NCBI GenBank assembly: GCA_043228905.1
Contig: JBHGNT010000008.1
Location: 5,580,001 to 5,644,000 of the forward strand
DNA from: Azolla caroliniana
Lineage: Eukaryota; Plantae; Polypodiophyta
DNA length: 64,000 nt
Direction: 5' to 3'
Positions 11,267 to 52,765 of the stretch are shown piece by piece (the first letter of the stretch is position 1; every line of letters starts with the position of its first letter). The notes under the pieces are model-generated. The model searched no databases. It was not told the DNA's origin and saw only the letters and a list, made by a program, of their open reading frames with translations. The position numbers and the translations under genes were made by a program.

Positions 11267-11289
11267 AGGTTGATGCAAATCGGGCTCAC

Positions 11290-11402: not shown

Positions 11403-11440
<38 letters not shown>

Positions 11441-11918
11441 GAGGAGGTGGTGGTGGTGGTGTCATGGTGGTGCTGATGGTGATGGTGGTGGTGGTGGTGG
11501 TGGTCATCGTCCTTACTGAGCATGAGGTACTTGATGGCGACACTGTGGGTGTTGGCGAGCTGGTCCTCGAGGGCGCGCACCTGCTCAGGCGGGAGGCCGA
11601 CGCTGAGGCATTGGACGTGCGCGCGTAGGAGGTGCTCGAAGAGCGGGTGCGAGACCATGTCCGCCTTCAGCTTGGCCGACAATCGGAGCTCATCGATAAC
11701 ATGAAGGAATTCATGTCCGGGCGAGGAGGAGGAGGAGGAGCCGCCCAGGCCCGGGCCCCCGCCCCCGCCATTGTGGCCACTCATATTTCCACCAAAATTA
11801 GGGTTGTAATTGTGATGAATGTTTAGGGTTGCTGTAGCAGCCCCATATTGCATGGATTCGGGCGCATTTAGGGTTATGTTACTGCTACTGCTACTGCTAC
11901 TGTGCGCATTCTGTAGAT

Positions 11919-11949
<31 letters not shown>

Positions 11950-12057
11950 GTTATAGATTGAAGCAAAATTGCTGCTGTTCTCCTCTAATCTGTTGTTGTT
12001 ATTGCTCTGCTGATGCAGCGCTGAGGAGCTTGGAAAGAATGGTCGCTCGTGAGCCAT
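11290..12057 (-). CDS. KNOX2: Class II KNOX exon 1 (low-complexity N-terminus, KNOX1 subdomain)
   Basis: ATG at 12057; KLKADMVSHPLFEHLLRAHVQCLSVGLPPEQ (KNOX1); ends IDEFM|GTGAG donor at the conserved KNOX intron position. Five exons sum to 1404 nt, in frame. Confidence 0.9.
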
Positions 12058-12917
12058 TTCTTTCTCTCTCTCTCTCTCTCTTTTCTTTCTTTCTTTTTTA
12101 AATCTTTCCGTTTAAATTTTGCTTTTCTTTTTATTTCTTTTAATCTTTCTCCTCCTTTCTTTTGCTTTTCTCTTTTAGATTTCTGTTTTCTTTTTGGGTT
12201 TTCTGATTATTTCGGGGGCGTGGATTTAGTATACAGTATATAGGGTCGATTCTCTTCCACGATGATCATGAAGTGGCCCCCTGCGGCGGATTGGATCTGC
12301 ACAGACCAAAGAAAAATCAAACACTGAAGTGTAGCGATGGCGGAAAATTTTGCAGAAATTTCATGCGTGAAGTGAAAATCTGCAGAATTAATTCGACAAC
12401 TGATGATGAGGAAGCAGGGAAAAAAAGCACAGAAAATCTATGAAGTATACTAGTAGGCGATTTGAAATCAATCCCAGAGGGAGATGAAATTGAGCCAAAA
12501 GATTCAGAGGACTGATTATTAAGGTTAAACTATCTGGAATTCAGATGGTACCTTGCAGTAGGGTTGCGCTTAAATATTTAGTTAAAGATTTGAGTTTAGG
12601 GTTAATTAGGGTTTAGCTCAGGACTAGCAGTGTTAAAAAAAAAATGATAGCTGGTTATTAGGGTATGAGGTCACAACCAAGCTATAAAAACCAAAAGGTG
12701 AATGGATTTTGGAGATATGGTTACTGTAGCAGATTGAGTATGCAGGAGGGGGGGGTAAGGGTGGTTATAATCATAGCCAAAAAAAAAAAAGGCATGGAAA
12801 ATCAGGGGGTTAGGGCTAGGGTTTTAGCAAAAATACCAACAGGACCGTGGAAGCTCTGTCAAATTCCAATGGGGTTGGGTAGGGCAGGCTAATAATGGAG
12901 GTTCAGCTCACCACTCC

Positions 12918-13100
12918 CTTAGGGCTAGGGCTAGGGCTAGGGTTAGGGTTAGGGTTAGGGTTTCTAGTGTTAGCAAAAGAATTGCTGAGGCTTTGTCAAA
13001 TGTGATCGAGTACTAGGTATTGTGATGCAGGTAAACAAGAGCAGCAGTATTAGGGTTAGGGTTAGGGTTAAGGTTTAGGGTTTAGGGCGTAGGACTAGGG
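12918..13100 (+). repeat. Telo-box-like clusters (TTAGGG/CTAGGG/TTTAGGG) upstream of KNOX
   Basis: (ctaggg)n(ttaggg)n at ~12918-12963 and ttaggg/tttaggg at ~13050-13100. Confidence 0.8.
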
Positions 13101-26099: not shown

Positions 26100-27532
26100 T
26101 GGTTTGTAGAACAGATATGAGCGGAAGAACGTGTGAGGACCTGTTAGTTTGTGAACAACAAACAACACAAACATGCAACACAAGAAGAAACAGTAGATCG
26201 ATAGAGATTGGAGCTTCAATGGATGTTCTTGTTATTTTGTAACTCTCTCTCTAAAAGACTCAAGATACAAACTTTTAGAGCTTATATACTAAGCCCTAAC
26301 TATTTGGACGTGTTCACACTTATGGATACTGTTGAGCGGCAAGCTCAACTGGAGCCGGATCGACTGGATAAGCCTGAGCCAGTGAGCAAGACAGATCGGT
26401 AAGCCGGTGAGCAACCGAGCCGACAAGCAACAGAGCCGGTGAGCTGGGGAGTCGGTTAGCCGGATCCAATCGGTAACCGGAAGCCTAGTATTAGTTTAGA
26501 CTACTAGGCAGTTATAGTCTCGTAGTAAGTGTCAGATGCTCGTGTGAGCATTGAAGTACGCGGTACTTCTGTCAGTCCCACGAGGACTTGTATAAATAGT
26601 GCTACTGAGCATAGTTGTAAGTGACACAGAGAGTGTGTTTTATATTGTTTTGAATATAACTTTTACGTTCTGCTCTCTCTCTCTCTCTCTGCCTCTCCCG
26701 TGTACTCTGTGTATTCTCTGCTTTCTCTATTTTCTAACGCTTCCACAAGTAATTGTTTACATGGTATCAGAGCGCGAGGGTTGAGAACCTCTACATCCGA
26801 CAAACGCTTGAGAGCAAACCCTAACAAGTCGTAAGAACAACAGACAGAGAAGTGATGGATAGAGGAATGGCTAGATGGCTCCCTATGAAGAAACTCGACA
26901 GATCCAACTACGCATCTTGGTCATACAAGATGCACCAGTACCTGCTTGCGCATGGCTACTGGAGTTTTGTCGAAGGAGCCAACGAAACAACACCTGATGC
27001 GGCATATAAGGATTTCCTAGTGTGGGAACAATCAACAAGCAGAGTGATGTACTGCTTCGCATCCAGTGTCGGAGACCAGCTGCTGAGCCACATTCGGGAT
27101 GCCAAGACGCCGAAGGAGGCTTGGGGAAACCTGAAGAAGGTTTTCGCCGCGAGCACTACAACCCGGAAGCTGCAACTCCGACAGGAGTTAAGCAATGTCC
27201 GATAGAAGGACATGTCGGTGGCGGATTACACGGCCCGGATCAAAGAGATCTGTACTCGCTTGCCTCTATCAACGTTACCGTAGAGGAAGACGAGATGGTA
27301 CAGGTTTGTCTTGGGGGCTTGGCGTCTAAGTTCAGAGCGTTCTGAACGGTGGTATGTACAAGGGAGAATACACCGTCATTTTTCGACTTACAATCGATGC
27401 TCCTTGTAGAGGAGAACCACGCCGGTGCGTCAACTAGCGCACCCATTGATAGCTGGATGCTGTACACGGAAGCGGATCGGTCCCGTGGGCGTGGTGGACG
27501 AGGCGGGTCGGCACACAATGGAGGCGGCCGGC

Positions 27533-27592
27533 TGTCAGTACTAATTCTCTGTTTAGTACTAATCCTCTCTCTGTTTAGTACTATTCTTGATA
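27533..27592. mobile_element. 60-bp micro-insertion with LTR-like ends in element A gag
   Basis: TGTCA...TGATA ends; TSD ccggc at 27528-27532 and 27593-27597; removing it puts upstream gag back in frame with the CWYCGKKGHRESEC knuckle. Confidence 0.8.
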
Positions 27593-30223
27593 CCGGCAAG
27601 ACCAATAACAAAGGCACAGAGAACGTGCCGACAACAGTTTCGGACCCTTTGGGAGCAGGGGGAGTCATGGCGGCACCGGAAGACGGCAAGAGAAGACTGC
27701 TACGGAATGCTGGTACTGTGGCAAAAAGGGCCATAGAGAAAGCGAGTGCTAGAGAAAACCCTACGGCAAGGTTGGCAAGGATGGCCGACAAAGCTCGCAC
27801 TACGCGAAGGGATCAGGAGGATCCAAGAACGGTAACGGGCCAGCCTTGGTGATGAAGCACGAGGCGAACTCGATGAAGAAGACCACTTCCAAATCGGAGG
27901 AAGTGTGGTATGTTGATTCTGGTGCGTCAAACCACATGACGAGCCACAAAGAGTGGTTCTCCGTTTTGGAGAAACCGGATCAACCAGGAGTAGTCGAAAC
28001 CGGAGACGACACTCCTCACCCAATCGTGCACATCGGAGAAGTCCCTTTAAGCCACGTCGGAAAGAAAGGGAAGCTAATGAACATATTACACGTTCCGACA
28101 ATCACGAAGAACCTGGTGTTGGTCGAACAGATCGTCGACCGAGGGATGCAGGTGCAATTTACGCACCTTGGGTGCTTCATCGAGGAAGAGGGCCAAATTA
28201 TTGCGCAAGGGCGCAGAGACGGGAGGATGTTTATCCTCGACACCAATGACATCGGCACCGCTTTGTTTGCAAAAGGACAGAAGGTCAAATCGGACATCAA
28301 CCTATGGCACAAGTGGATAGGCCATGTCAATTACCGGAGGCTTCAAGACCTGCAAACGAAACAAGTTGTTTTTGGTTTGCCGAAGTTCAGCAGCCGGAAG
28401 GCACAAGTATGTGAAGCCTGCCAACTCAGGAAGCAACACTGGCTTCCATTCCCTACCGAACGTAACTGGAGCCGTAACAAGCTCGAACTTATCCATTTGG
28501 ATGTGTGGGGACCGTCACAGAATGTTAGTCTTGGCGGGAGTCGATATTTCGTCTCCTTCATCGACGACTATACGCGACACACATGGATCTACCTCATTGA
28601 GCGGAAGAGTGAAGTCTTTGAGTGTTTCCAGAGTCTCCAAAGCATGGTGGAACTGGAATCGGAGAGGAAGATCAAATGCCTGCGGTCGGATGGCGGAAAA
28701 GAATACTTTTCCGGCCAAGTCAACAGTTATCTGCAGCAAAAGGGAATTCGGCGAGAGTTCAGCTGCAGATACACACTGCAACAGAACGGTGTTGCCGAAA
28801 GGAAGAACCGGTTGCTTATTGATGCGGCAAGGGCAATGCTGGAGGAGAAGAGCATGCCCAAATTCTACTAGGCGGAGGCAGTCCGAACAGTTGTCTACAT
28901 CCAGAACCGGATCGGTGACAAGGTGTCAGCTCACGAGTTGTATTTCGGGCGCAAGCCGAATTTGAGACACCTTAAGATCTTCAGTAGCATTGCATATGTG
29001 CATGTACCGGATGAGAAGCGGAGGAAGTTGGATGCAAAATCGGAAAAATGCATCCTAATCGGATATGCTCAAGAGAAAAAGGGTTATAAATGTTATAACC
29101 CCAGGACAAAGCAGGTCCGAGTTAGTCGAGATGTTGATTTCGATGAATTGGCATCATGGTACTCCTTACCGGCCCCGACCTCCGAATCCGACCCGATGCC
29201 AGATGATGAGGCTAGTGAGCCTGAACCGGCCCAGGTAGATGATGATGAAGCGTGGACTCAGGATGAGAGTCCGGAATCGTTTCGGTTGAGCATGCTGAAC
29301 GAGAGACTGAGTCAATATGACCAGTCCGATGAGGAACCGGCGAGTAGTGGAGACTCTGTCGTACTCTCCCCGCGCGAGGAACTGAGGAGATGGTTCACGC
29401 GCAAAGAGAAAGGGAAGAAAAAGATGTCGGAATTCAAAACCGGCAACGATGAGTCGGATCGGTGTGCATCCGACCCCGGCAAGGAGAAAGGCGGACCTTC
29501 GGCAACGAAGACCGAACCAGCCAAGAAAGGCCTTAAACCGGGCAACGGTGAGTTACGCCGGTCCACCCGCCAGAAGGATCCCGTCAAGCGGTACGAGTAC
29601 AATGAGTAGATGGCGCATCACTATGCGTACATGACTAAGGTGGCGGAAGTGCGTGAGCCGGGAACTACGCAGAAGCGGAAAAGGACACAAATTGGCGTAC
29701 CGCTATGGAGGAAGAAATGCGGGCATTTGATGTCAACGAGACATGGGACCTAGTTGACCCTCCCCGTCACTGTAAACTGATCGGATGCAAGTGGGTGTAC
29801 AAGGTAAAGTACAACGCAGTCGGTTCAGTTAACCGGTACAAGGCCCGGTTAGTGGCGAAGGGATACGCGTAGACCCACGGAATCGACTACGACGAGACCT
29901 TCGCTCCGGTCACGAGGATGACGACGGTTCGTGTGGTACTGGCGGTTGCTGCAGCAAGAGGGTGGCATCTTCACTAGATGGATGTGAAGAATGCGTTTCT
30001 TCAGGGTGATCTTGAAGAAGAAGTTTTTATGACTCAGCCCCAGGGTTTTCAATCGGAGATGAACAAGTCGGCGGTATGCCGGCTGAAGAAGTCGTTGTAC
30101 GGCCTAAAGCTAGCCCCTCGAGCTTGGAATGTGACGATCACACACCGGTTGCGTAAGATGGGGTTTGCGGCCTCCAAGTCCGACTCTTCATTGTTCATCC
30201 GGCAAGGCTCAGCCGGTCCGGTA

Positions 30224-33200
30224 TGTTGAGAAGCAAGCTCAACATGGTATGTGATGCTTATGAGAAATAAGCTATAGTAGCTATTTAGCTACTAGTGAAC
30301 AAAAAGGTAAAACAGCTATTTAGCTAGTGACAGCTAATTAGCTAGTGAACAACTATTTAGCGACTGATAGCTAATTAGCTACTGGCAGCTAATTAGCTGC
30401 ATGTGTAATAACTTATGACTTAGGTAAAAGTAAGTGAGAGTGAATAGGAAGTAAGTAGTAAGAAAAAACAGAGAATAGTGAGTAGAGAACTCTGAGAGAG
30501 TGTGAGAGACCAGAAGACTGACGAGAGCAAGTTGAGCTCTACATGTAGTAGAAGAAAACCATTTTGCTACTATAGAGGTAAGTCCCCTTTCCTTTCTCTG
30601 TCTGTTTAGAGCACGCTAACGATCCAGCACACTACGATCCGCCGCGCACATAAGAAGAGCTCGAGTGCCTTCTTCACGTTTTCTTAACATGGTATCAGAG
30701 CAGAGTTGCTCATAAAGAAGAGTACAAAAGTGCATAGATCTGAGAAAGGTATTTCTCTGTTTGCTGATCTGAATCAGAAAGTTACTTGTTGAAGTAATTG
30801 TAACAGAAAACCTAGTTTGGAAGAGATAATGGCTGCAGAGAATGCGGGCCAAATAGTTACAGAGAAACTAGATAAAAACAATTTCCCGGCGTGGAAATTT
30901 AGAATGACAAATTTCCTAATGGGGAAAGGATACTGGGATTACATTGAAGGAGACCTAGAAGAGGCTCCGGAGATCCCAGAAGAAAATGCCACAGCAGCAC
31001 AGATTAAAGCATTCAAAGATTGGAATCAAGGGGCAAGGAAGGTAATGCATTGGCTCTCACTTAGCATCTCAGATTCGATGCTTGGGCACATACAGGATGC
31101 TATGCTCCCAAAAGAAGCTTGGGACAGTTTGGTAAAACTGTTTGCAGTAAACACAAAAGCTAGAAAGCTACAGTTGAAGACTGAGCTAAATACCTTAGAA
31201 AAAGGTAAGATGTCAATAAATGAGTATGCCCTAAAAATCAAGAGCATATGTGAATCACTTGCTTCTATCAATGTAAAGATAGAAGATGATGATAAGGTAG
31301 AAATATGCTTGAGAGGCTTGGGACCCCAATACAAAAGCTTTAAAACCTCTATGCTTACAAGGGATAGTATCCCAAGTTTCTCAGATCTGGTTTCAATGCT
31401 TGTAGTAGAAGAAAGGAATCAGATGGATGATGTAAATAAAGGAAATCTTGAGAATGAGGGGCAAGCCCTATATAATAGTGCCGGAAGAGGCCGAGGAAGA
31501 GGCCATGGAAGATTTGGCTAAGCAAGAACCAACAATAATGGTTATCAAGGAAGAGGACAACAAACCATTAGAGGAAGAAACAACAACAGAGGCAGGGGGA
31601 GCAACCAAGGTAGAGGTAAGCAAACATATGTAAATGATGATGGCTGTTGGTATTGTGGAAAACCAGGCCACACACAGGCTGAATGTTAGAAGAAGCAAAA
31701 TGATGAGCAAAGAGGAAAGAGACAGCAGAATAACTATGCCCAAACTAGTGAAGATTGTGAAAAAGATGGTGCATTTGTGGTACAACATGAGATAGCAGCA
31801 GTGGCTGAAAGCTCACAGAAATGTAATGAAGAGTTTACATGGTATGTAGACTCGGGGGCATCTAACCATATGACTGGACATGCAAATTGGTTTGAGAGTT
31901 TAAGAGAACCAGAGGTTCCTGGTTATGTACAAACAGGTGATGACACAACTCACCAAATAAAACATGTTGGAGATATCCCATTGTGGGAAGAAAGAGGAAA
32001 AACCAAGTATATGTTGGATGTGATGCATGTTCCAAATCTTGCTAAGAATCTGATTTCTGTTGGACAGATAGTAGAGCAAGGTATGCAAGTAAAGTTTAAG
32101 CAAAGTGGATGCTATATAGAAAAGAATGGGAAGCTCATTGCAAAAGGGAAGAGACAAGGAAGAATGTTTATCTTGGATGTAGAAATGCCCAAACAGATTT
32201 CAGCCATGTTTGCAAATGGAACGAGTGTAATCTCAGATGTGGAAATGTGGCATAAAAGGATTGGCCATATAAGTATGCAAACATTAAAGAATATGTTGAG
32301 AAAAGATGCAGTGGCTGGACTGCCAAACTTGAAAAAGTGTGAAATGGGAAAGGTATGTGAAGCATGTCAATATGGTAAGCAAAACAGGTTGCCATTCCCT
32401 CATGAAAGACATGTAAGCAAAAATCTGTTGGATTTGGTACATACAGATGTATGGGGACCAACAAAGAATGCATCTATTGGTGGATGCAGATTTTATGTTA
32501 CATTTATTGATGATTGTTCACGGAAGACATGGGTGTACTTCATGAAGGAGAAAAGTGAAGTATTTGACTGTTTTCGTAAGTTTAAATGCATGGTAGAAAA
32601 GCAGGCTGGTACTAGGATAAAATGTTTGAGATCTGATGGAGGAGGAGAGTATTTCTCCAATGAATTTTCTGATTTTTTGCGTAATCAGGGAATAAGAAGA
32701 CAGTTCACATGCCGATATACTCCACAGCAAAATGGAGTTGCTGAGAGGAAAAACAGAACTTTGGTGAACATAGCAAGGGCAATGATGACTGAGAAGAACA
32801 TGCCATTATACTATTGGGCAGAAGCTGTAAATACAGCAAATTACATTTTAAATAGATGTATTACATCAGGAGTACATGAGGCAACTCCTGAAGAGTGTTT
32901 TTATGGCAGGAAGCCTAGCTTACAACACTTGAAAGTGTTTGGATGCCTTGCATATGTACATGTGCCTGCAGAAGTAAGAAGTAAGTTGGATCCAAAAGCA
33001 GAAAAATGTATCCTTGTTGGATATTCAGAAGAACAAAAAGGGTACAGATGTTATAACCCTGTGACTAAAAAGATTGTGACAAGTCGAGATGTGATATTTG
33101 ATGAGTTGGCTAGTTGGTACAACCTAAAACAGAATCTAGAGACTGATGAAGACTGTCAAAATGAAGACAAAGACAGATCAGAAAATGTAGAAGACTGTCA

Positions 33201-35660
33201 CAGAGATGGAGACAAGGTTGGACAGCAAAGTCCAACATCAACAGAATGTTCTGGACCATCAAAAAGCTCAGATGGTAAATCTGATTCAAATTCATGGAGT
33301 GGAAAAACTGGACAGAAAAAATCTGATGACAAAAAAGGAAAACAGAAAATGCCAGAGTATGAAATCCTGGATGACCTATCAAAAAACATGGAAGATGAAG
33401 ATTCAGATATGTCTTTGGATGATTTCCTTGGAATACAGGAAATGAAAATCCTTGGTATGGAAAAGGCAATAAAGAATGCAAATCAGAAACTGAGAAGATC
33501 AGATAGAGAGAAAAAGACTGTGGAAAGATTTGGGTATGATACATATATGGCTATGCACTATGCATATATGTCTAAGGTGGTACAGATCCCTGACCCAAAC
33601 AGCTTTGAAGAAGCAAAATCTGAGAAGAAATGGATGGATGCAATGCAAGAAGAGATTGATGCATTGGCTGAGAACAAAACGTGGGATTTAGTGAAGTTAC
33701 CAAAAGAGAAAAATGTGGTAGGCTGCAAATGGGTCTACAAGACAAAGCATGACTCCAATGGAAATGTAAGTAGACATAAAGCAAGATTGGTTGCAAAAGG
33801 ATATGCTCAGATGCAAGGGATTGATTATGATGAGACTTTTGCACCGGTTGCAAAGATGGCAACCCTGAGAACACTACTTGCTGTAGGAGCAGCCAGAAAA
33901 TGGATTTTGCATCACATGGATGTAAAAAATGCTTTTTTACATGGTAACTTGGAAGAAGAAGTGTATATGAGTCAACCACCAGGTTTTGAAGATAAGAAAC
34001 AACCTGATTATGTATGTAAGCTGAAAAAAGCTCTCTATGGACTGAAACAGGCACCAAGAGCATGGCACAGAGAACTTTCAGATTCTCTGAAAAATCTTGG
34101 TTTCAAAATGTCAAAAGCTGATCCTTCTTTGTATGTAAAAAGTGAAAATGATTGCATTGTTATTATTCTGATTTATGTAGATGATTTGATTATTGGAGGA
34201 GATTCCGTGGATGAAATAAGAAAGTTGAAAAAAAATCTGGAAATGCAGTTTCATATGAAAGATTTGGGAGATCTGAGATATTTTCTTGGTATTGAAATCA
34301 TCAAATCTGAAAGTGGTATATGTATGTTGCAAAAACAGTATGCAACAACTATGTTGAAAAAGTATGGTATGCTTGGATGCAAACCTATTGCTGTACCACT
34401 TGATAAAAACTGCAAGTTGAGGGCTGATTTGGGAGCCAAGATAGAAGATGTAAACATGTACAGGTCTATGGTGGGCAACCTTATTTATTTGACTATAACA
34501 AGACCTGATTTGAGCTATGCTGTTGGATTAGTCAGCCAATTTATGCAACAGCCAACAAAGCCACATTTGGACTGCATTAGAAGAATTCTGAGGTATGTAA
34601 AAGCTACTCAGAACTATGGATTGTTTTACAGGGCTGATTTGGACATAAATCTGGAAGGATATACAGATGCTGATTGGGCTGGAAGCCAAACAGACAGGAG
34701 ATCCACAAGTGGATATATCTTTACATTGGGAAGTGCAGGTATTTCATGGAGTAGCAAGAAACAGGCTACTGTTGCATTGTCTAGTACTGAAGCTGAGTAC
34801 AGAGGAGCTGCCATAACCACTTGTGAAGAGGTATGGATTAGAAGATTGCTTGCTAATTTGGGAGAGTATATAGACGGTACTGTCACAATCTGGTGTGACA
34901 ACATGAGCAGCATTCAACTTGCAAAGAACCCTGTGTTCCATGCAAGAACAAAGCACATTGAAGTGCATTATCACTTTGTTAGAGAAAAAGTGATTGAAGG
35001 AGAAGTTGATCTGGTGTATGTGAATACAAATCAGCAGGTTGCTGATATTCTCACAAAGGGATTGAGTGTGGAAAAGCATACACAGTTTCGGAACATGATG
35101 GGAGTTGTAAACATTGATGAGATGGCTAAAAAGCAAAATGGAAAAGAAGATTGAAGAGAACCTCAAGCAAGAATAAGTTGAGCTTGAGGGGGAGTGTTGA
35201 GAAGCAAGCTCAACATGGTATGTGATGCTTATGAGAAATAAGCTATAGTAGCTATTTAGCTACTAGTGAACAAAAAGGTAAAACAACTATTTAGCTAGTG
35301 ACAGCTAATTAGCTAGTGAACAGCTATTTAGCGACTGACAGCTAATTAGCTATTGGTAGCTAATTAGCTGCATGTGTAATAACTTATGACTTAGGTAAAA
35401 GTAAGTGAGAGTGAATTGGAAGTAAGTAGTAAGAAAAAACAGAGAATAGTGAGTAGAGAACTCTGAGAGAGTGTGAGAGACCAGAAGACTGACGAGAGCA
35501 AGTTGAGCTCTACATGTAATAGAAGAAAACCATTTTGCTACTATAGAGGTAAGTCCCCTTTCCTTTCTCTGTCTGTTTAGAGCACGCTAACGATCCAGCA
35601 CACTACGATCCGCCGCGCACATAAGAAGAGCTCGAGTGCCTTCTTCACGTTTTCTTAACA
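30224..35660 (+). mobile_element. Copia element B (young, full-length), inserted in the RT of element A
   Basis: TSD cggta at 30219-30223 and 35661-35665; 466-bp LTRs 30224-30689 and 35195-35660 (about 7 differences by eye); PBS at 30690; PPT before 35195. Confidence 0.96.
30829..35154 (+). pseudogene. Element B gag-pol, one reading frame broken by two stops (TAA 31519, TAG 31687)
   Basis: Gag, CCHC knuckle, PR (WYVDSGAS), GAG-pre, IN (HTDVWGP, SDGGGEY), RT (YVDD) and RH (TDADW) are all in the same frame. Confidence 0.92.
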
Positions 35661-38600
35661 CGGTATGTATCCTGCTGTATGTTGATGATTTAGTCATCAC
35701 CGGACCGGGTCAAGTTCCAATTGTCGGACGCATTTGAGAGGAAGGACCTGGGGGACCTTCATTATTTTCTTGGGATCGAGGTGATCCGAACCCCCGACGA
35801 CATATTACTCTCACAATGACATTACATCTTGAATATGTTGTACAAGTTCGGCATGACAAAATGCCAACCTATCTCCACACCCTTGGACTAGAACCAGAAA
35901 CTTCGTCCCAACTCCGGACCGGCTTGCAACAACAAACGGTTCCGAAAAATTGTTGGAAGCCTTATTTACTTGACTATCACGCGATCTGACATCAGCTATC
36001 TAGTCGGAATGATAAGCCAGTTCATGCAGAAGCCAACCGTGGAGCACCTTTAGTGCGCGCAGCGGATACTGCGATATGTAAGCGGCACGAAGGACCAAGG
36101 ACTGTTATACCGACGAGGTATAACCGCAGAGCTAGTCGGTTACACGGATGCCGACGGGGCCCACGATGTGTCGGATCGCAGATCCACTTCTGGTTTTATG
36201 TTTTCCCTTGGGAGCACAACTGTTGAGTGGAGCAGCAAAAAGCAGCCAACAGTGGCTCTATCAAGCACTGAGGCTGAGTACCGGGGCACAACCTTTGCAA
36301 CCTGCGAAGCCATTTGGCTTCGGCGACTGCTGCGAGACTTGCGGATCGAGGTACCAACCCTGATCCCGATTTATTGTGATAACATCAGCAGCATGCAGCT
36401 CGCAAAGAACCCTGTGTTCCATGCTCGCACGAAGCACATAGAAGTGCATTATCACTTTGTGCGTGAGCGGGTCCTGAGCGGTGAAGTTGAACTATGGTAT
36501 GTTCACACGGATCGGCAAGTTGCCGATATCTTCACCAAGCTGCTTGGATCGGGCAAGTTGCAACACTTTACCGACATGCTTGGTGTTCAGCATCTCGACG
36601 TGCCGCACTTGAGGGGGAGAAGAAGGGGCAAAGACACCGCCGGAACGGGCAAAGGCAAAGAGACTGTTGCCGACACCGGTAAGGGAAGAACCGGAAGAGG
36701 GGAAGACAAGGAGGCTGAAGAAGCCGAGGATGGAAGCAAGGCCAAGACCCGAACGTGGTCTGATGTGGTGAAGGGCCTTAAACCGAAAGACGAGTTGGAG
36801 GATACCGACTCGGACAAGAGCTGGAACGAATCAGGGACAACCAATTCGGACCAACAGATGGATCCGGATGAACTGAATCAACTGGAGGCCAAGCAGACAT
36901 GGATGCAGCAAAAGTCGATGCCATTGCGGAGGAACCGACAGATCGGCAAGCACCGGAGTCATAGTAGCGAAGGTGTTGAGAGGGGCCTATTGAGCAGACA
37001 TGCCGATTGAGAAGGTCGAGGCGCGCAGAACCAGAAGGGTCGTGGCAAACAGAACCGGACCGGACGAGGAGCGCGAGCAAGGCGGAGCGACGCCAGGAGA
37101 AGTCGGTTGGAAGAGCCGACTGCCATAGAGGCTGACACTAGGATCCAACCTCAAGTTGAGCTTGAGGGGGAGTGTTTAGCGGCAAGCTCAACTGGAGCCG
37201 GATCAACTGGATAAGCCTGAGCTAGTGAGCAAGACGGATCGGTAAGCCGGTGAGCAACCGAGCCGGCAAGCAACAGAGCTGGTGAGCTGGGGAGCCGGTT
37301 AGCCAGATCCAATCGGTAACCGGAAGCCTAGTATTAATTTAGACTACTAGGCAATTATAGTCTCGTAGTAAGTGTCAGATGCTCGTGTGAGCATTGAAGT
37401 ACGCGGTACTTTTGTCAGTCCCACGAGGACTTTTATAAATAGTGCTATTGAGCACAGTTGTAAGTGACATAGAGAGTGTGTTTTATATTTTTTTGAATAT
37501 AGCTTTTACGTTCTGCTCCCTCTCTGTCTCTCATGTGTACTCTGTGTATTCTCTGCTTTGTCTGTTTTCTAATGCTTCCGCAAGTAATTGTTTACAGATA
37601 CAAAGTGGAAGGACTCGGCCTTTTATGCCAACAAGCTCACCTGTAAAAGCACTACTCTTTCTATATATGATTGTTTGGGGCCATCTCCCCCATAAACCTA
37701 GATTACATTTTAATCTAAAGTTATGGTTATAAATCAGTTGGCATATAGCCGAGTCAACAAAGATAAAGTTGGTATCTAGCCTGATTCGGCTAGTCATCCA
37801 GGTCAGCTTGTCTAAGTCGGTCAGATCAACTTAGCTTCAGCTCCTTGTTAATCTTTCTTCTGCTCTACCGTTTGTCGTAGTCCTATCTGTGTCCTTAGTG
37901 CTCCAAAGCGTTGATTTGGGAGTGGCTTCGTCAAGCAATTGGCGATGTTCACCTCGGTGTCGATCTTCCAGACTTCGAGCTTTTTCTCGGTCACTAGTTC
38001 CCGGATATGATGATACCGCACCTCAATATGCTTTTTCTTCGCATGATAGACAAGATTATTAATGACTCAGTGTATCACGCTCTGTGAGTTGAAGTAGATA
38101 GTTGGTGTTGGTCGGTCGATTCGATTGTCATCGAGAAATCGTCTGACAATCAGTGCAAGCAGATGGCTTCCTTCACTGCTTCTGATGTTGCTATGTACTC
38201 TACCTCTGTGGTAGATAGAGCTATGCACTTTTGTATCTTCAACCTCCATAATATGGCATCGCCACCATAGGTGAAGATGTAGCTTGATGTTGACTTCCGA
38301 TTGTCTAAATTCCCGGCATAGTCGGAGTCGGTGTAGCCTTCGACTTTGGTTGGGTTTGCCGACCCAAAAATCAGTTGTGCATCCTCGGTCCCTTTTAGGT
38401 ACCTGAAGATGTGCTTGACAGCCTCCCAATGCTTCCGTCCTAGGTTTGACATGTGGTGGCTAACGACCCCTATGACATAGGCAAGGTGAGGTCGGTCGCC
38501 ACCATCGCGTACATAATACTTTCTACAACAGATACATAGGGTATCTTCCTATTGAGCTCTCTCTCCTTGTCAGTTGAAGGAGAGACTCTGTCTGATAGTC

Positions 38601-42646: not shown

Positions 42647-43402
42647 TGACGGGAACTACAACGCTCCTTATGCGCAACGCTCGGCCACAACCGAACTTAG
42701 AATCATACACAGAAAACAGTGAAAGAATGCACGACACGAAGAAGAGAAGAGTACACAGGATGTTTACGTGGAAAACCCAAACTAAGGGAAAAACCACGGC
42801 AGCCCACAGGCTGCAAACTATCACTATGTTAGAATGTACAACAGTGAGTTCACGGAGGCAACGACCTCGTGCTCACGATCTTCGCCACAGGCGGCAGTTA
42901 CAATTGAGGCAACGACCTCTTCCTCTCTCTCACTCTCTCTGTACACAGTTACACGCTCTGATCTCGCGCAGACAAGAATAACAACAACAACCTCAAAAGG
43001 TTTGCCCTAAGTCATATTTATACTAATATGACTTTTCGGCTATTTACAAATACAGCCATGATGGACTCTCAGAAACATATTTACGAATATGTCTCTTCAT
43101 TCGGAGAGCACTTCTCACCGGGTCTGCACCATCCGGCTCTCCGTAGCCGGGTACTCCTCATCCGGTTCTCACCGGGTCTGCACCATCCGGCTCTCCAAAG
43201 CTGGGTACTCCTCATCCGGTTCTCACCGGGTCTGCACCATCCGGCTCTCCGTAGCCAGGTACTCCTCATTGTCAGGAACTCTATTAAGGCAGAGAAGGAA
43301 TTAGTACTAAAAGAAGGATTAGTACTATTGTTGGGGAATAGTACTAAGACAGAGAAGGATTAGTACTATGAGAGGTGTCGAACTTTGAGAGAAGGAATGA
43401 GT

Positions 43403-43452
<50 letters not shown>

Positions 43453-43734
43453 TGATGCGAAAGATATATGTATTATATGACGGAAGATATACAACAGTAG
43501 TTAGAAGGCTTAAGACTGGCGTTGAACCGATTTGGTTCGAACTAATGCCTTGCGCCTCCTTTTATAGTGTCTTCAGGAATACTCCTGAAGTTTCTAGAAT
43601 GTTCCAGAGAAATCTGGAATATACATCAATTTCCTAATAAAACCTAAATGAAAATAATATCCTTCAAATTACAACTCATAACCTAATGGTAAAGTCTCGA
43701 CCCGTGTAACAAAAGGTTATGGGTTCGAGTCTAG

Positions 43735-46700
43735 TTATGACACTATCCCCCCTTTAAAACGACGAGTTTCACGAGTCGTTTTGGATTGAGGACCCGGTTT
43801 CTCGGGATATCGTCGATGGAAGTCTTCTAGAAGAGCACGAGCATTGGTCACATTCTCGATCGGTTCCCAAGTACGCTCGCTGGGACTATATCCTAGCCAA
43901 TCGACTAGATAGTAGAGCTTGTTGCGAACAATCTTGGAATCGAGGATGGCAGCGACCTCATACTCAGGTCCATCTTCGAGCTCGATAGGAGGTGGAGGTT
44001 GTATAGTACGTCCTGGGATAGTGCTCTCGTGATAGGGTTCGAGGAGAGAACTATGAAACACCGGGTGTATCCGAAGTTGCGGAGGTAGCTCGAGACGAAA
44101 AGCGACATCATTAATCTTCCCGATAATACGGAAAGGACCTAATCGTCGATAATCCAACTTCTCACATGGGCGAGTAGTCTTGATGTGTCGTCGTAGCAGC
44201 CACACCCGATCTCCAATGTTAAAACTGGATGGAAGTCGATGACGATCTGCGTAGTCCTTGTGTGATTGTTGAGCTTGCTGGAGTTGAGTAGATAAATCCG
44301 CTTGTATCTTGCGTAACCGCTCCAAACGATCCTCCGCGCAAGGATTTGTGGACACTTCTGGGGTTTCAAGGACACACCACCGGGGATGATATCCCGTATA
44401 AGCGTAGAATGGCGTGACTTTAGTCGATGCGTGGATAGCGTTATTATAGGCAAATTCGGCGAACGGAAGAATATCTGCCCAGTCATTCTGATGATAGTTG
44501 AGAAAGCACCGCAGATACTGCTCCAGTGTTTGATTTGTTCGTTCGGCTTGACCGTCGGTTTGTGGGTGGTAGCCGGAGGAGAGGTTACAAGTGACCTTCA
44601 GCATTTTAAAAAGGTGCTTCCAGAATTTTGACACAAACTGGGGTCCACGATCGCTGATGATATTATCAGGGAGTCCATGATGCCGACATACTTCCCGCAT
44701 GACAATTTCGGCGGTGTCTTCACTAGATATTTCTTTAGTACATGGTAAGAAATGAGCCATCTTCGTATATCGATCCACCACTGTGAGAATCGCACTGAAT
44801 CCCTTAGAGACTGGAAGATCTGTAATGAAGTCAAGAGCAATGGATTGCCATGGCTTGCTTGGAATTGGTAATGGTTCTAATAAACCATATGGATGATGTC
44901 TTGGCATTTTCGCTCTGCAGCATGTATCGCAAGTCCGAACAAAATCTTCGACAAATTGTCGCATACGGGGCCACCAGAATGATCGTTGTACTAAATCTAA
45001 TGTTTTAGTACTACCAAAATGTCCTGCTGTATATGTGTCATGGCAGTTTTGTACTACTCGAAGGCGGCAAGAACCATTAGGAACATACAAAAGTTCTTTA
45101 AAGAAGAGTAATCCATCACAGTATTTGAATTGCCGATAATCCGTACCTGGTGATTGTGATTGTGAACATGACGCTCGAGAGGGGTCAATTTGTGCTAGTA
45201 TAGCTTGGGCGAAAGCGTCAGTCTTCAAGTCCTCACGTATAGTATTGGTAATGTCGGAATCCACGGGCATGTCAAAGATCTGTGCTGCTTGCAGTCGTGC
45301 TGGACCCAAGATTACTTGCTTCTGGTTATCGAAAGCTGGCTCACCGGGACGTGGTGTTAGATACGAACGCCGTGATAATGCATCTGCTTTCCCTTGGTGC
45401 TTCCCCGGACGATATGTAATTTTGAAGTCGAAGCGTGTGAGGAAATGGGCCCACCGAGCTTGACGTCGATTCAGTACACGAGCATCTTGAAAGTAGGCAA
45501 GGTTCTTGTGGTCACTGAATACAGTGACCTGATGAGGAGATCCCTCCAAGAAATGCCTCCATTGCATAAAAGAATCAACTATTGCTAATAGCTCTTTATC
45601 ATGAATTTCGTAGTTGATTTCGGCGGCGTCAAACTTACGGGAGTGGAAAGCCACAGGATGTAGCTTCTCGTCGTTACCCTGTTGTGACAGAATGCTCCCC
45701 AATGCGAAATCCGATGCATCAGCTTCGATAATGAATGGTTTTTCCGGATCCACATGACCTAAAATTGGAGCTGATGTAAACACCTTCTTAAGACTCTCGA
45801 AAGCCATGTCCGTCTCTTTAGACCAAATGAATGATTGTCCCTTCCTGGTGAGCTGTGTGAGAGGCAGCACAATTTTTGAGTAATTTTGTATGAACTTCCG
45901 GTAGAAATTTGCAAAGCCTAGGAAGCATTGCACATCCCGCACCGAACGCGGAGTGTGCCATTCTATCACCGTTTTGACCTTGGCTGGGTCCATAGATATG
46001 CCTTCTGAGGAGATGACATAGCCGAGAAACTCCACTTGGTTGCACCCGAAACTACATTTCTCTAACTTTGCATACAGACCATGTTCTCGAAGTCGTTTTA
46101 GTACTAATAGTACATGAGAATCATGTTCTTCTTGGGTCTTTGAATAAACCAGTAGATCATCCAAATAGATGATCAAAAAATCATCCAAGAGGTCTCGAAA
46201 TATATCATTCGCCATGTGCTGGAAGACTGCCGGCGCATTAGTGAGTCCGAACGGCATGACCGTATACTCGAAGTGCCCATATCTGGTGCGAAACGCGGTC
46301 TTCCATTCATCTCCTGGTCGGATCCGTACGAGGTTATAGGCTCCTCGTAAGTCGATCTTCGTGAAGAACCTGGCACCGTTGATCCGTTCTAAAAGACTTG
46401 AGATAAGGGGAAGAGCATACCTATTTCTTACTGTGACCTTATTCAAGCCACGGTAATCTACAACGAGTCGAAGCGAGCCATCTTTTTTCTTGACGAAGAA
46501 AATGGGTGCGCCGGCTGGAGATTTCGAATGCCGAATGAAACCGTTCTCCAAATTCTCCTCTATATAGGCTCGAAGGACTTCTAGCTCGGTTGGTGACAAA
46601 TTGTAGATCGGCCCCCATGGCGGCTCTTTTCCCGGTTGTAAGTCGATGGCGCAGTCGTACGGCCGATGATGAGGAAGTGTGTTGGCTTGTACTTTATCGA

Positions 46701-47331
46701 ACACATCAGCATACTGACGATACTTCTCGGGAAGTTGAACGGTGGACTCCTCTTTGGTGATGCTGGAGGGTTGTACTGATATTGCAAAGAGAAACATTTC
46801 CTCCTTGCGCCCTTCCTCACGCAACTGACGTAGCGAAATGGTTGCAACCTTCTGGGTAGATCCTTGGGTTTGTCGCAACCGGATTTCCCTTGTCCTCCAA
46901 TCTATGTCTGGGTCATGTAACTCGAACCATGGTAATCCTAAAACTATGGGATGTTCTGGAATACTAATAATATTAAATGATACTACACATGTTAAGTTAT
47001 CCAGGACAATATTAACGGGTTCCGACTCTTCTATGATATTACCAGAAGCAATGGGACGACCATCAATGACTACTACTGAGGCTGGACATGGGAGCTTTCT
47101 GAGAGATATCTGATGAGCTCGGGCAAAATTCCTATCCATGAAGCAAGAATTAGCTCCGGAATCTAGAAGGGCTAAGGTATGTACTGGAGGGGTACTTTTA
47201 GTACTAACTGCTACTTGGACTACGAACACATCACTAACTTGCTTAGAGGGAATGGAACCACTAATGGGCTGCACAGATCTAGGGCTGTCCAACCAAACGG
47301 CTCCTATTTTGGCTGGACTTAGTCGTTTAAC
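43735..47331 (-). CDS. pol: Chromovirus Pol (PR-RT-RH-IN-chromodomain), -1 frame relative to gag
   Basis: LLDSGA, YLDD, EADASD, HHCC/DDE integrase, YEVAAILDS...WEP chromodomain; no AUG before PR; stop lies inside the 3' LTR. Confidence 0.93.
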   Translation of the reverse strand, partial: VKRLSPAKIGAVWLDSPRSVQPISGSIPSKQVSDVFVVQVAVSTKSTPPVHTLALLDSGANSCFMDRNFARAHQISLRKLPCPASVVVIDGRPIASGNIIEESEPVNIVLDNLTCVVSFNIISIPEHPIVLGLPWFELHDPDIDWRTREIRLRQTQGSTQKVATISLRQLREEGRKEEMFLFAISVQPSSITKEESTVQLPEKYRQYADVFDKVQANTLPHHRPYDCAIDLQPGKEPPWGPIYNLSPTELEVLRAYIEENLENGFIRHSKSPAGAPIFFVKKKDGSLRLVVDYRGLNKVTVRNRYALPLISSLLERINGARFFTKIDLRGAYNLVRIRPGDEWKTAFRTRYGHFEYTVMPFGLTNAPAVFQHMANDIFRDLLDDFLIIYLDDLLVYSKTQEEHDSHVLLVLKRLREHGLYAKLEKCSFGCNQVEFLGYVISSEGISMDPAKVKTVIEWHTPRSVRDVQCFLGFANFYRKFIQNYSKIVLPLTQLTRKGQSFIWSKETDMAFESLKKVFTSAPILGHVDPEKPFIIEADASDFALGSILSQQGNDEKLHPVAFHSRKFDAAEINYEIHDKELLAIVDSFMQWRHFLEGSPHQVTVFSDHKNLAYFQDARVLNRRQARWAHFLTRFDFKITYRPGKHQGKADALSRRSYLTPRPGEPAFDNQKQVILGPARLQAAQIFDMPVDSDITNTIREDLKTDAFAQAILAQIDPSRASCSQSQSPGTDYRQFKYCDGLLFFKELLYVPNGSCRLRVVQNCHDTYTAGHFGSTKTLDLVQRSFWWPRMRQFVEDFVRTCDTCCRAKMPRHHPYGLLEPLPIPSKPWQSIALDFITDLPVSKGFSAILTVVDRYTKMAHFLPCTKEISSEDTAEIVMREVCRHHGLPDNIISDRGPQFVSKFWKHLFKMLKVTCNLSSGYHPQTDGQAERTNQTLEQYLRCFLNYHQNDWADILPFAEFAYNNAIHASTKVTPFYAYTGYHPRWCVLETPEVSTNPCAEDRLERLRKIQADLSTQLQQAQQSHKDYADRHRLPSSFNIGDRVWLLRRHIKTTRPCEKLDYRRLGPFRIIGKINDVAFRLELPPQLRIHPVFHSSLLEPYHESTIPGRTIQPPPPIELEDGPEYEVAAILDSKIVRNKLYYLVDWLGYSPSERTWEPIENVTNARALLEDFHRRYPEKPGPQSKTTRETRRFKGGIVS

Positions 47332-48488
47332 TCTTCTTCTAATTGGCTAAGGACATCAAATTTGTTTGCGAGATTCGGACTATTAGTACTATTAGGACTA
47401 TTATGACTATGAGGATTATCAGAGATTCCTAGTGACATAGACTCGGGTTTAGTATAGTCAGAACTAACAATGACTTGGTTTACCTGCCTTCTTGGTCTAT
47501 GGGGACAGTTTATCGCGATATGCCCTGGTCCACCGCAATAAAGGCATAATCGGTTTGTTCGGCGTCGTTGCTTTTCCTCCTCCGATAGCGGCCCACGACG
47601 ACGTGTAGTGTCAATTTCCATTGGAGTTGGAGTACTTACTGGAGGCGCATTATGTGACTCCCTTTGAAAAGGTTTCGCTACCATTGAGGCATAGGTAGGC
47701 TCGGATCTTGCCCTCGGCATCTGAAATTGTCGTTCCGAACGTCGCTCGAAGAGGCGGTTGTCACATCTGACCGCTCGACTGATTGCTTCTGTTAATGATT
47801 TTGGCTCTTCAGGGAAAGTCAAGAGTAAATCCTTGACATCGTTGCGTAGACCATAGCGGAACTGCTCCATCAATGCTTGATCATCCCAGGGGATATCGGC
47901 GGCGAGTAGGCGGAAATCTGCAGCATATGCGGAGGCTGGACGGTCACCTTGGCGTAATCGCCGGATTTTGTTGATTGCAGTCCTTATGCTGTCAGTATCT
48001 CCAAAACATGCTTTAAACTCACTTATGAATTCTTCAAAATTATTTAGTACTGGAGATTCCTTTTCTAGTAGCGGAGCGAACCATGCTAATGCTGAGCCAT
48101 TTAACAACGTGCCTACTAAACCCACTCGTGATGCATCGGTGGGATATCGGGACGGATGCATTTGAATAACTAACCGTACCTGGTTAAGAAACCCTCTAAA
48201 CTGCGATCGCGTTCCATCGAACTTCGTGGGAAGGCCAATCTTGGGTTCTTTATGAATCCCTTGTGCTCCGTGCCCTTGTTGTTGCATTGCTACGATGGTT
48301 GCTTCGAGTTGTTGCACGCGTAACGCAAGTTCCCCATGCTGTTGTTGCGTTTGCTGCTTTTCTAAGGAAATTTGCTGAAGATCCCCCAACAAGCGTTGAT
48401 TTTCTTGTTCCAAAGCATGAAACTTCTCTTTCAAGCATTGAAATTCCGAGAAAACGGATTGATACTCTTCAGCGCTAACGGTGGCCAT
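47319..48488 (-). CDS. gag: Chromovirus Gag (PEG10/Rtl1-like capsid, CCHC knuckle)
   Basis: 389-aa ORF; KFDGTRSQFRGFLNQ, LRQG, QFRYGL, PTPMEID, CLYCGGPGHIAINC. Confidence 0.93.
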   Translation of the reverse strand: MATVSAEEYQSVFSEFQCLKEKFHALEQENQRLLGDLQQISLEKQQTQQQHGELALRVQQLEATIVAMQQQGHGAQGIHKEPKIGLPTKFDGTRSQFRGFLNQVRLVIQMHPSRYPTDASRVGLVGTLLNGSALAWFAPLLEKESPVLNNFEEFISEFKACFGDTDSIRTAINKIRRLRQGDRPASAYAADFRLLAADIPWDDQALMEQFRYGLRNDVKDLLLTFPEEPKSLTEAISRAVRCDNRLFERRSERQFQMPRARSEPTYASMVAKPFQRESHNAPPVSTPTPMEIDTTRRRGPLSEEEKQRRRTNRLCLYCGGPGHIAINCPHRPRRQVNQVIVSSDYTKPESMSLGISDNPHSHNSPNSTNSPNLANKFDVLSQLEEELND

Positions 48489-48709
48489 GGGATGAAGGAA
48501 AAGGGAAATAAGAGACTAGTAGGAAAGGAGAGAGACAGAAGGAAGAGGGAGACTAGTAGGAAAAATCGGTTCAAACTGTCAGGAACTCTATTAAGGCAGA
48601 GAAGGAATTAGTACTAAAAGAAGGATTAGTACTATTGTTGGGGAATAGTACTAAGACAGAGAAGGATTAGTACTATGAGAGGTGTCGAACTTTGAGAGAA
48701 GGAATGAGT

Positions 48710-48749
<40 letters not shown>

Positions 48750-51700
48750 TGATGCGAAAGATATATGTATTATATGACGGAAGATATACAACAGTAGTTA
48801 GAAGGCTTAAGACTGGCGTTGAACCGATTTGGTTCGAACTAATGCCTTGCGCCTCCTTTTATAGTGTCTTCAGGAATACTCTTGAAGTTTCTAGAATGTT
48901 CCAGAGAAATCTGGAATATACATCAATTTCCTAATAAAACCTAAATGAAAATAATATCCTTCAAATTACAACTCATAACCTAATGGTAAAGTCTCGACCC
49001 GTGTAACAAAAGGTTATGGGTTCGAGTCTAGTTATGACACTCATCCGGTTCTCACCGGGTCTGCACCATCCGGCCCTCCGTAGCCGGGTACTCCTCATCC
49101 GGTTCTCACCGGGTCTGCACCATCCGGCTCTCCGTAGCCGGGTACTCGTCATACGGTTTATCAACACTGTTCTTCTCCCTTCCCATCCGGAGGGACCTGT
49201 CTCCCAACAAACTCCCCCTTCACTCTGGCATGAGGTGTCTTACTAGTCCGATCCTCTTCCGGCATGCATCCAGCTTGTCGGGTATCAACACTTCAGTCAG
49301 CATATCTGACCCGTTCTCGGCCGTGTGGATCTTCGTCAGTGCGAACTCCTGGTCATCTACTCTTTCCCGGATCCAGTGATACCTTCGTTGGATATGCTTC
49401 GTCCGGAAATGGTAGGCCGCATTCTTAGCAAGGTGGATGGCACTTTGACTGTCGCAATAGAGCCGGTATTCATCTTGTCGGATACCGAGCTCTCCGATGA
49501 AGTCCTTCATCCATAACATTTCCTTGCCGGCTTCCACAGCCGCCAAGTACTCCGCCTCCGTGGTTGACAACGCAACCGTCTTCTGCAGCCTCGACTGCCA
49601 CGAAACAACTCCCCCTGCATATGTCATTACATACCCGGATGTGGACCAGCTGGTATCCACATCAGCCGACATGTCTGAATCGGTGAAACCGTCAAGTTGA
49701 GATTTTCCGGAGCCGAATCGGAGACACATATTTGAAGTGCCCTTCAAATACCGGAGTATCCATTTGACCGCGTTCCAGTGCTCCTTGCCGAGATTGCTCA
49801 TAAACCGGCTCACCACTCTGACTGCGTATCCTATATCCGGTCGGGTACACACCACTGTGTACATCAAGCTCCTGACGGCAGAGGCATATGGAATCTTCAT
49901 CATATCCGCCTTCTCTGCTTTCGTCTTCAGGCTTTGCTTACCGGATAGCTTGCAGTTTGCCGGAAGTGTCGATCCGACCGGTTTCGCATCTGACATGTTG
50001 AACCGGTGAAGCACCTTTGTCACGTACTTCTCTTGTGATAGCCATAATTGCATCACTGACCGATTCCGGATAATATGCATCCCCAGCATCTGTCTTGCCA
50101 GACCCAAGTCTTTCATTGAGAAGGTCCGGTTGAGAGCCTTCTTCAGCATCCGTATTTTGACTTGGTCCCGTCCGACGATCAACATGTCATCCACGTACAG
50201 AAGGAGTATCAGGAAGTCGCCTCCTTCAAACTTCTTCACAAACACGCAGTGATCGGCCTACGTCTTGTGGTACCCTTGATCGGTCATGAAGGAATCGAAC
50301 TTCCGGTACCATTGTCGGGGAGCCTGCTTTAGTCCGTACAGGCTCTTCTTCAGCCGGCATACCAGGTGCTCCTTCCCTTTCTCCACAAATCCCTCCGGTT
50401 GCTGCATGTAGATCTCCTCTTTGAGGTCGCCGTGAAGGAATGCCGTCTTCACGTCCAACTGTTCTACCTCGAGGTCCATGCTTGCCGCTATACTCAGCAC
50501 CGTCCGGATGGAGGTCATCTTTACTACCGGGGCAAATATCTCGTCAAAGTCCACGCCCTTTTTCTGCTGGAAACCCCTTCACCACGATCCTGGCTTTGTA
50601 TCTCGGGGGGTTGCCGGCATCTCCCGGTTTCAACTTGTACACCCACTTGTTTCGGAGTGCCCGCTTTCCTTTCAGCAACTCCACCAATTCGTACGTATGG
50701 TTCTCATGCAGGGAATCCATCTCATCCTGCATGGCATTTAACCATTTGCGGCTGTGGGTGTCATCCTTCGCTTCTTCGAAGCTTTCCGGCTCCCCCTCAT
50801 TGGTCAGCAGAACATGCTCTGCAACCGGAAATCTCCGGGGCACCCTTCTCTCTCTGAGAGGATATCTCCGTCTTCTGGGTTCGGTAACCGGCTCCTCCAT
50901 TTTCTCTTCATCCGAATCTGATTCAGGGTCTTGGCCGGTTCCGGTTTCAGCTTCCTCTACTTCTTCTTCTGCCGGTTCGGTATCCTCACCGTAACCGGCT
51001 GGTTCCTCGAGTGCTAACCGGTCTCTTGCCGGTTGGGTCTGCTCATCGTAGAATTGATCATTACCGGTCGACTCGGAGTTCATTATCTTCTTCTCCGACT
51101 CCCAGTCGGCGAGCGTCTTGTTCTCCATGAAGATAATATCTCGACTCTGGAATACCTTCTTGTCGACCAGGTCCCACACTTGGTAGCCGAACTCATCGGC
51201 GCCGTAACCGAGGAATATGCATGGCCGGGTCTTTGGATCCAACTTTCCTCTCCGGTCCTTAGCTACATGCACGTACGCGAGACACCCGAATACCTTCAGA
51301 TGCCGGTAGGATACTTCCTTACCGGTCCAAACTCTCTGTGGCGTGTCTCCGTCCAAGGGTACTGAGGGTGATCTGTTTATCACATATGTCGCCGTCGACA
51401 GTGCCTCAGCCCAAAACTTCTTGGGTAGTTTTGCATGCGCCAACATACTCCGGACCCTCTCCATTATGGTCCGGTTCATCCTCTCGGCCAGCTCATTTAG
51501 TTCCGGCATCTTCGGCACGGTAAATTCGAGCCGGATTCCCTTCAAGTGACAGTACTCCTCGAACTGCCCCCGGTATTCACCTCCGTTATCTGCTCGAGCC
51601 GCCTTCAGTTTCCGGCCGGTTTCTCTTTCCACTCTCGCGTGGAGCTCTTTGAAGACGGATAACACCTGATCCTTCGTCTTCAACGGTGTGGCCCACAACT

Positions 51701-52727: not shown

Positions 52728-52765
<38 letters not shown>

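What the first reader, a model, noticed from the sequence alone, without database searches (positions are those of the whole stretch)
27528..27597. 60-bp micro-element with integrase-type signature
Seen: TGTCA...TGATA ends, perfect 5-bp TSD ccggc, and three AGTACT-centred subrepeats. Its reverse complement (aatagtactaaacagagagaggattagtact) closely resembles the U5 end of the chromovirus LTR (aatagtactaagacagagaaggattagtact, ~43337-43367). It interrupts Copia A gag cleanly. Inference: the solo LTR of an extremely small non-autonomous (TRIM-like) parasite of the Tcn1-type family, or a minimal att-att substrate integrated directly.
Basis: partly seen in the sequence, partly recalled or inferred. 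Interest (0 to 1): 0.75.

Follow-up and report, generated by a model that had tools for sequence, protein, structure and literature searches.

The report
Collapsed remnant of a chromovirus LTR
A real 60-base insertion in a dead plant jumping gene carries both end motifs and the tail of a common retrotransposon's end repeat, and is likely an ordinary insertion whose middle was later deleted, not a new miniature element.

Summary
The insertion is real: 60 bp at 27533-27592 (TGTCA…TGATA) with a 5-bp duplication CCGGC, and related Copia sequences show the empty site in 4 of 4 sequencing runs laid. Its last ~47-56 bases are the U5 end of an abundant self-priming (Tcn1-type) chromovirus LTR subfamily. 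In public contigs that end runs on into the lineage's primer site and continues upstream as conserved LTR interior. The first five bases equal the lineage's U3 start. No laid contig in 4 of 4 runs joins TGTC to this U5 (0 of 265 records), so the many-copy TRIM prediction failed where testable. The 60-mer also lacks the TATA box and self-primer this lineage likely needs. Best reading (0.7): a normal insertion collapsed by internal deletion, probably helped by short homology. Limits: no whole genome was held, the parent's full LTR was not seen, these runs also lack this locus's own junction, and one ambiguous contig end leaves sibling mini-copies open (about 0.12). The scan's notes show no earlier finding of this. 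Ordinary retrotransposon debris with a tidy anatomy.

The parts
27528..27532 (+). Left copy of the 5-bp target-site duplication (CCGGC)
   Evidence: Sequence; empty site with 5 ambiguous letters in 4 of 4 runs
27533..27537 (+). TGTCA, equal to the U3 (left att) start of this chromovirus lineage; inferred to be all that is left of U3
   Evidence: Window LTR starts TGTCA; 8 of 11 related loci printed have TGTCA after the purine tract
27537..27592 (+). U5 end of a multi-copy chromovirus LTR subfamily: three AGTACT modules, a TC-run 4 bases shorter than in the nearest relatives, and a right end TGATA (likely TGACA after C>T)
   Evidence: Contigs cover 27546-27583 with 0 differences and 27537-27586 with a 4-base gap; they end in CA or run into GTTTGAACC
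27593..27597 (+). Right copy of the target-site duplication (CCGGC)
26330..37596 (+). Host element Copia A (LTRs 26330-26761 and 37173-37596, duplication GATAC, 25 of 424 LTR columns differ); gag is broken by the insert and by stop codons; Copia B is nested in it
43270..49039 (-). Full chromovirus used as the reference relative (LTRs 43270-43742 and 48577-49039, duplication CTCAT, 1 of 463 LTR columns differs; gag, pol and chromodomain; self-priming site)

Best explanation
The 60-bp piece is a true insertion with a 5-bp target duplication, made of the lineage's TGTCA start and the U5 tail of a common chromovirus LTR, and it is likely what remains of a normal element after its middle was deleted. 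Shown: integrase-type ends and duplication, the empty site in related Copia sequences, U5 identity of the last ~50 bases, and TGTCA as the lineage's U3 start. Inferred: a full-size Tcn1-type element integrated into Copia A gag; then, in the chromosome, either a solo LTR formed and lost about 400 bp, or one larger deletion joined the first bases of the 5' LTR to the last ~55 bases of the 3' LTR. Inferred: the join was helped by short homology, since the U5 array in this lineage begins at a TCTCA-like motif that mimics the TGTCA start, and by the palindromic AGTACT modules. The remnant has no promoter or primer and is predicted to be immobile.
For: Empty site in 4 of 4 runs. U5 end abundant and linked to the primer site GTTTGAACC in runs X1, X2 and X3, the same motif that follows the window chromovirus 5' LTR. 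Upstream of 27554 the loose ends share one conserved sequence (6, 5, 10 and 9 contigs in X1, X2, X3, X10; agreement 0.84-0.89) rather than varied flanks; it carries CCTCT[CT]AGTACTAAT in X1 and X10, like the window LTR's interior CCTCTCATAGTACTAAT. Depth is 0 over 27519-27536 in 4 of 4 runs, 265 records laid; the four listed records that reach 27537 have other letters before it. In the window LTR the U3 start TGTCATA and the U5-array start TCTCATA share 6 of 7 bases. Related LTRs measure 395-473 bp and hold a TATA-like motif and, in 3 of the 4 LTRs seen with their primer site, a 12-nt complement of it; the 60-mer has neither. Deletions at micro-homologies are a documented way LTR elements decay (PMC1940013, passages read).
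Against: The parent subfamily's full LTR and its U3 start were never seen; only up to 30 upstream letters are shown. The one contig that shows the nearest (tandem-module) subfamily upstream has CTCT, not TCTCA, before the module, so the short homology at the actual join may be only 1 base, or two deletions were needed. The runs lack this locus's own junction and hold only 0.17-0.59 of the region's words, so they are probably other genotypes, and the tool filters some records. One loose end in X3 begins GTCAGTACTAAT (CTCAG), which could be an internal variant or a sibling mini-copy. A deletion breakpoint within 5 bases of the element's end is a priori uncommon.
Confidence: 0.7

Rival explanations
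1. The deletion happened during reverse transcription: after copying ~55 nt of U5 (which folds into hairpins) the minus strand would jump early to the U3 start by short homology, giving a full-length cDNA with two 60-bp LTRs. It integrated as a dead copy and later recombined to a solo mini-LTR.
For: Explains why the join falls exactly at the U3 start. U5 array folds (z -5.2, 0 of 200 shuffles for the window LTR; z -2.3, 4 of 200 for the insert). Solo LTRs of 79-87 bp exist (PMC3281118, passages).
Against: Needs two rare steps; no element with two 60-bp LTRs was seen. A search for the mechanism in print gave nothing relevant. The final sequence cannot be told from a chromosomal deletion.
Confidence: 0.12
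2. One reading: solo LTR of a non-autonomous TRIM-like family with ~60-bp LTRs that borrows Tcn1-type enzymes.
For: Intact ends and duplication; precedent of 85-bp LTRs with solo copies (PMC3281118); solo LTRs in 101 of 115 non-autonomous beet families (PMC13570524, sections 25 and 27); one X3 loose end starting GTCAGTACTAAT.
Against: One copy in the window; 0 of 265 laid records with the TGTC start; no TATA-like motif and no self-primer in 60 bp, whereas the lineage likely self-primes from within its LTR (PMC6317226 passages).
Confidence: 0.12
3. A 60-bp linear DNA with both att ends was integrated directly by the chromovirus integrase.
For: Both ends and a 5-bp duplication are present.
Against: No route to make such a DNA is apparent; bending 60 bp of duplex so that both ends enter one integrase complex is sterically unfavourable (own knowledge; search found no paper). 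The end order is not that of a two-LTR circle junction.
Confidence: 0.03
4. A U5 fragment was pasted in as repair filler at a staggered break, the TG start being chance or an internal TGTCA variant.
For: GTCAG occurs as a variant at the start of the U5 array in run X3.
Against: Needs the 5-bp duplication, the exact right LTR end and a TG left end all by coincidence.
Confidence: 0.03

Closest known systems
Solo LTRs and internally deleted LTR-retrotransposon remnants of plants (PMC1940013, passages read)
   Same: Both LTR termini and the target duplication kept; interior lost; no coding or priming signals.
   Different: Extreme loss: about 60 of an inferred 400-480 bp remain, with one breakpoint within about 5 bases of the left end.
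Tcn1-clade chromoviruses (PMC6317226 and PMC2864245, passages read)
   Same: TG…CA ends, 5-bp duplication, and U5 linked to a non-tRNA, self-priming-type primer site in relatives; the window's full relative has a chromodomain and 463-473-bp LTRs (SM-Tcn1: 440 bp).
   Different: The 60-mer itself has no R region, TATA or self-primer. Clade placement of the parent rests on features and best hits, not on a tree with named Tcn1 references.
SMART / FRetro129 small LTR retrotransposons and TRIMs (PMC3281118 passages; PMC13570524 sections 25, 27)
   Same: Very short TG…CA unit with a 5-bp duplication, like a SMART solo LTR (79-87 bp).
   Different: SMARTs and TRIMs are multi-copy families with paired short LTRs, a primer site and a purine tract; none of this was found here, and the sequence is a sub-part of a longer LTR.

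Membership tests
LTR-integrase insertion | TG…CA termini | tested here: met
   TGTCA…TGATA; relatives end in CA at that place, one likely C>T change
LTR-integrase insertion | 4-6-bp target-site duplication with an empty site in relatives | tested here: met
   CCGGC; skip of 65 with 5 ambiguous letters in 4 of 4 runs
TRIM/SMART solo LTR | Many copies with the same two ends and different duplications | tested here: not met
   1 copy in the window; 0 of 265 records in 4 of 17 listed runs reach the left end. Caveat: own genome not searchable, runs lack this locus's junction
TRIM/SMART solo LTR | Paired short LTRs around a primer site and purine tract | tested here: inconclusive
   None in the window; short contigs cannot show pairs; the primer site seen after this U5 is that of the autonomous lineage
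TRIM/SMART solo LTR | LTR holds promoter and signals needed for copying | tested here: not met
   No TATA-like motif; at most 4 nt complementary to the window element's primer site
Internally deleted LTR remnant | Ends are the two ends of a longer LTR | tested here: met
   TGTCA start in the window element and 8 of 11 loci printed; U5 end with conserved upstream continuation
Internally deleted LTR remnant | Full-size parent LTR of the same subfamily, or longer allele at the locus | not testable with these tools
   No genome held; exact-pattern scans empty; both read-laying runs used
Internally deleted LTR remnant | Micro-homology at the join | tested here: inconclusive
   6 of 7 bases in the window's relative; TCTCA in one subfamily but CTCT in the nearest one
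Tcn1 chromovirus (parent lineage) | Chromodomain at the end of pol | tested here: met
   PF00385, E 2.2e-14; translation
Tcn1 chromovirus (parent lineage) | Self-priming site instead of a tRNA site | tested here: met
   12-nt complement inside the LTR in the window element, L001 and L003, with matching changes on both sides; 7 nt in L010. Prediction from sequence only
Tcn1 chromovirus (parent lineage) | Groups with Tcn1 / Tf1-Sushi in an RT-RH-INT tree | not tested
   No tree built. Named hits: fungal and vertebrate proteins mostly 48-64% identity, seed-plant ones 42-53%, which fits but is not a test

The most novel reading that the evidence does not exclude
This lineage repeatedly collapses its LTR at the TGTCA/TCTCA look-alike, yielding 60-70-bp mini-LTRs, some of which belong to a mobilised non-autonomous family with LTRs shorter than the 85-bp SMART LTR; the insert would be one solo copy and would show how little LTR an integrase of this lineage needs.
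Probability: 0.12. Interest if true: 0.5.

Novelty: new member of a known kind. Interest (0 to 1): 0.15.

Why it matters
As read here it is a neat example of how LTR insertions shrink to footprints that keep both ends and the target duplication and that annotation tools would miss; it changes no model. If sibling mini-copies with different duplications turn up, it would instead mark an unusually small LTR and a repeatable route from an autonomous self-priming element to a miniature parasite.

Tried and rejected
No whole genome was held, and the loci's source records could not be searched. Exact-pattern scans for the U5 motif found 0 matches in viral, metagenome and prokaryote genome contigs; these collections probably lack the host, so this is no evidence on copy number. 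The 80 protein-related loci gave no match to the 60-mer and served only for LTR anatomy. A scan of them for short TGTCA…TGACA units with duplications gave 3 hits in 597,982 bases against a shuffle mean of 0.2; one lies in a tandem repeat, one in pol, one (L056) is unexplained; none resembles the insert. Long contigs table 8 extend past the U5 end, not upstream, so they were not used for LTR length. Summed contig depth was not used as a copy number. Absence of this locus's own junction in the runs was not taken as proof of polymorphism. A second relaxed hit (21676-21829) has no other match in the window and was dropped. Assembly artefact rejected: it would not give the duplication, both end motifs and the empty site. 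Earlier scan notes held nothing on this element. Paper searches gave nothing useful; searches gave the papers cited. No supplements were read.

Full report
Observation. The insert is 27533-27592, 60 bp, TGTCA…TGATA, between two CCGGC copies, with AGTACT at 27537, 27555 and 27577. It is AT-rich (GC 0.32) in a GC-rich gag (0.66, 0.59). Ends plus duplication occur once in the window against 0.145 in shuffles. The empty site, a skip of 65 bases with 5 ambiguous letters, stands in 4 of 4 runs laid, so it is a true insertion. Codon phase is the same at both duplication copies. The host is a land plant by its KNOX1-domain gene and plant-type retroelements; I did not identify it further.

Context. The insert sits in Copia A (26330-37596; 25 of 424 LTR columns differ), which also holds the younger Copia B (8 of 467). 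A young chromovirus lies at 43270-49039 on the minus strand (1 of 463), with RT, RNase H, integrase and chromodomain. Insert bases 22-54 match its U5 array at 32 of 34 columns (score 54, shuffle maximum 34 of 1000).

What the relatives show. No genome was held, so I laid contigs of 4 of the 17 listed runs on 27519-27606 at 88% likeness (51, 30, 93 and 91 records). Cover is very high over 27552-27590, lower over 27537-27551 and zero over 27519-27536 in all four. In X2 one contig matches 27546-27583 without difference at depth 396; contigs in X1, X2, X3 and X10 reach 27537, the listed ones with 3-4 extra TC-run letters. To the right, contigs go on with CA and then either varied sequence or GTTTGAACC, the motif that follows the 5' LTR of the window's chromovirus; some end TGATA before that motif, so the C>T end is not unique. 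To the left they go on into one conserved sequence that resembles the interior of the window's LTR, not into varied flanks. Tables 7 and 8 of that call were cut (15 and 236 rows not shown); the depth table covers all records laid. So the bulk of the insert is the U5 tail of an abundant LTR subfamily, and its left end was not seen on any relative.

The left end. TGTCA starts the LTR in the window's element and follows the purine tract in 8 of the 11 related loci printed (one has TGTTA, two show no LTR). LTRs whose ends could be read measure 395-473 bp. In the window's LTR the U3 start (TGTCATA) and the start of the U5 array (TCTCATA) differ by one base, and one subfamily in the runs has TCTCA directly before GTACTAAT. 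A deletion between such look-alikes would give the insert's start. This is inference: the nearest subfamily shows CTCT there in the one contig that reaches it, and the parent's U3 was not seen.

Why a 60-bp LTR is unlikely to be a working LTR here. The lineage appears to self-prime: 12 nt after the 5' LTR are complementary to a site inside the LTR, about 30 nt after a TATA-like motif, in the window element, L001 and L003, with matched changes on both sides (7 nt in L010). Neumann et al. (PMC6317226, passages) predict self-priming for most Tcn1 elements; Novikova et al. (PMC2864245, passages) found neither tRNA nor self-priming evidence for SM-Tcn1 and give its LTR as 440 bp. The 60-mer has no TATA-like motif and at most 4 nt of such complement. 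A mini-family would need an outside promoter and another primer.

Against this reading. The four runs do not show the window's own junction or a long exact piece of this Copia copy, and hold 0.59, 0.57, 0.45 and 0.17 of the region's words, so they are likely other genotypes or species and the tool filters records; the negative result is about those genomes. The test only sees copies with the same inner layout. One X3 loose end (8 contigs, median 10 letters, longest 25) begins GTCAGTACTAAT (CTCAG at looser settings); it may be an internal variant or a ~67-bp sibling. Solo LTRs of 79-87 bp exist for SMART elements, called the smallest LTR retrotransposon in 2012 (PMC3281118, passages); I did not check later size records.

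Mechanism and odds. Normal integration followed by chromosomal deletion, 0.7; early strand jump during reverse transcription followed by solo formation, 0.12; TRIM-like mini-family, 0.12; direct integration of a 60-bp DNA, 0.03; repair filler, 0.03. Decay of LTR elements by solo formation and micro-homology deletions is established (PMC1940013, passages), and truncated derivatives are common even in non-autonomous families (PMC13570524, abstract and sections 25 and 27). Searches showed no paper on a remnant of this exact form, which says little given the library's limits. The steric argument against direct integration is from my own knowledge.

Verdict. Real feature, right lineage, ordinary explanation most likely. 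Interest 0.15.

Noticed in passing
window 48559-48576 (minus strand, after the 5' LTR) and about 48817-48828; L001 4200-4664; L003 4039-4471: Tf1-like self-priming signature: 12 nt after the 5' LTR complement a site in the LTR about 30 nt after a TATA-like motif, with matched changes between the three elements.
   Followed up: partly
window 43270-43368 and 48577-48675: The chromovirus U5 is a modular array of palindromic AGTACT units that folds into hairpins (z -5.2). It seems to hold an internal former end, and contigs in X10 and X3 show back-jumps in the array (table 5c), so this U5 expands and contracts.
   Followed up: partly
window 43270-49039: Very young chromovirus copy (1 mismatch in 463 LTR columns, long open gag and pol frames) inserted in a 54-bp tandem repeat (43112-43269, 49040-49158).
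   Followed up: no
window 30224-35661: Copia B nested in Copia A with duplication CGGTA; 8 of 467 LTR columns differ.
   Followed up: no
window 11257-12111 (minus): First exon of a KNOX1-domain homeobox gene with long low-complexity runs, flanked by telomere-like TTAGGG/TTTAGGG runs at 11101-11266 and 12919-13087.
   Followed up: no
window 50112-58788: Several Copia-like pol fragments in direct and inverted orientation (75-85% identity), a nested cluster not resolved.
   Followed up: no
L001 and L003: Related chromoviruses in tandem, sharing one LTR between two internal regions.
   Followed up: no
L056 650-789: 140-bp stretch with TATCA…TGACA ends and a 5-bp duplication; may be chance.
   Followed up: no
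window 21676-21829: 154-bp TG…TA stretch with a 5-bp direct repeat; single in the window, within chance expectation.
   Followed up: partly
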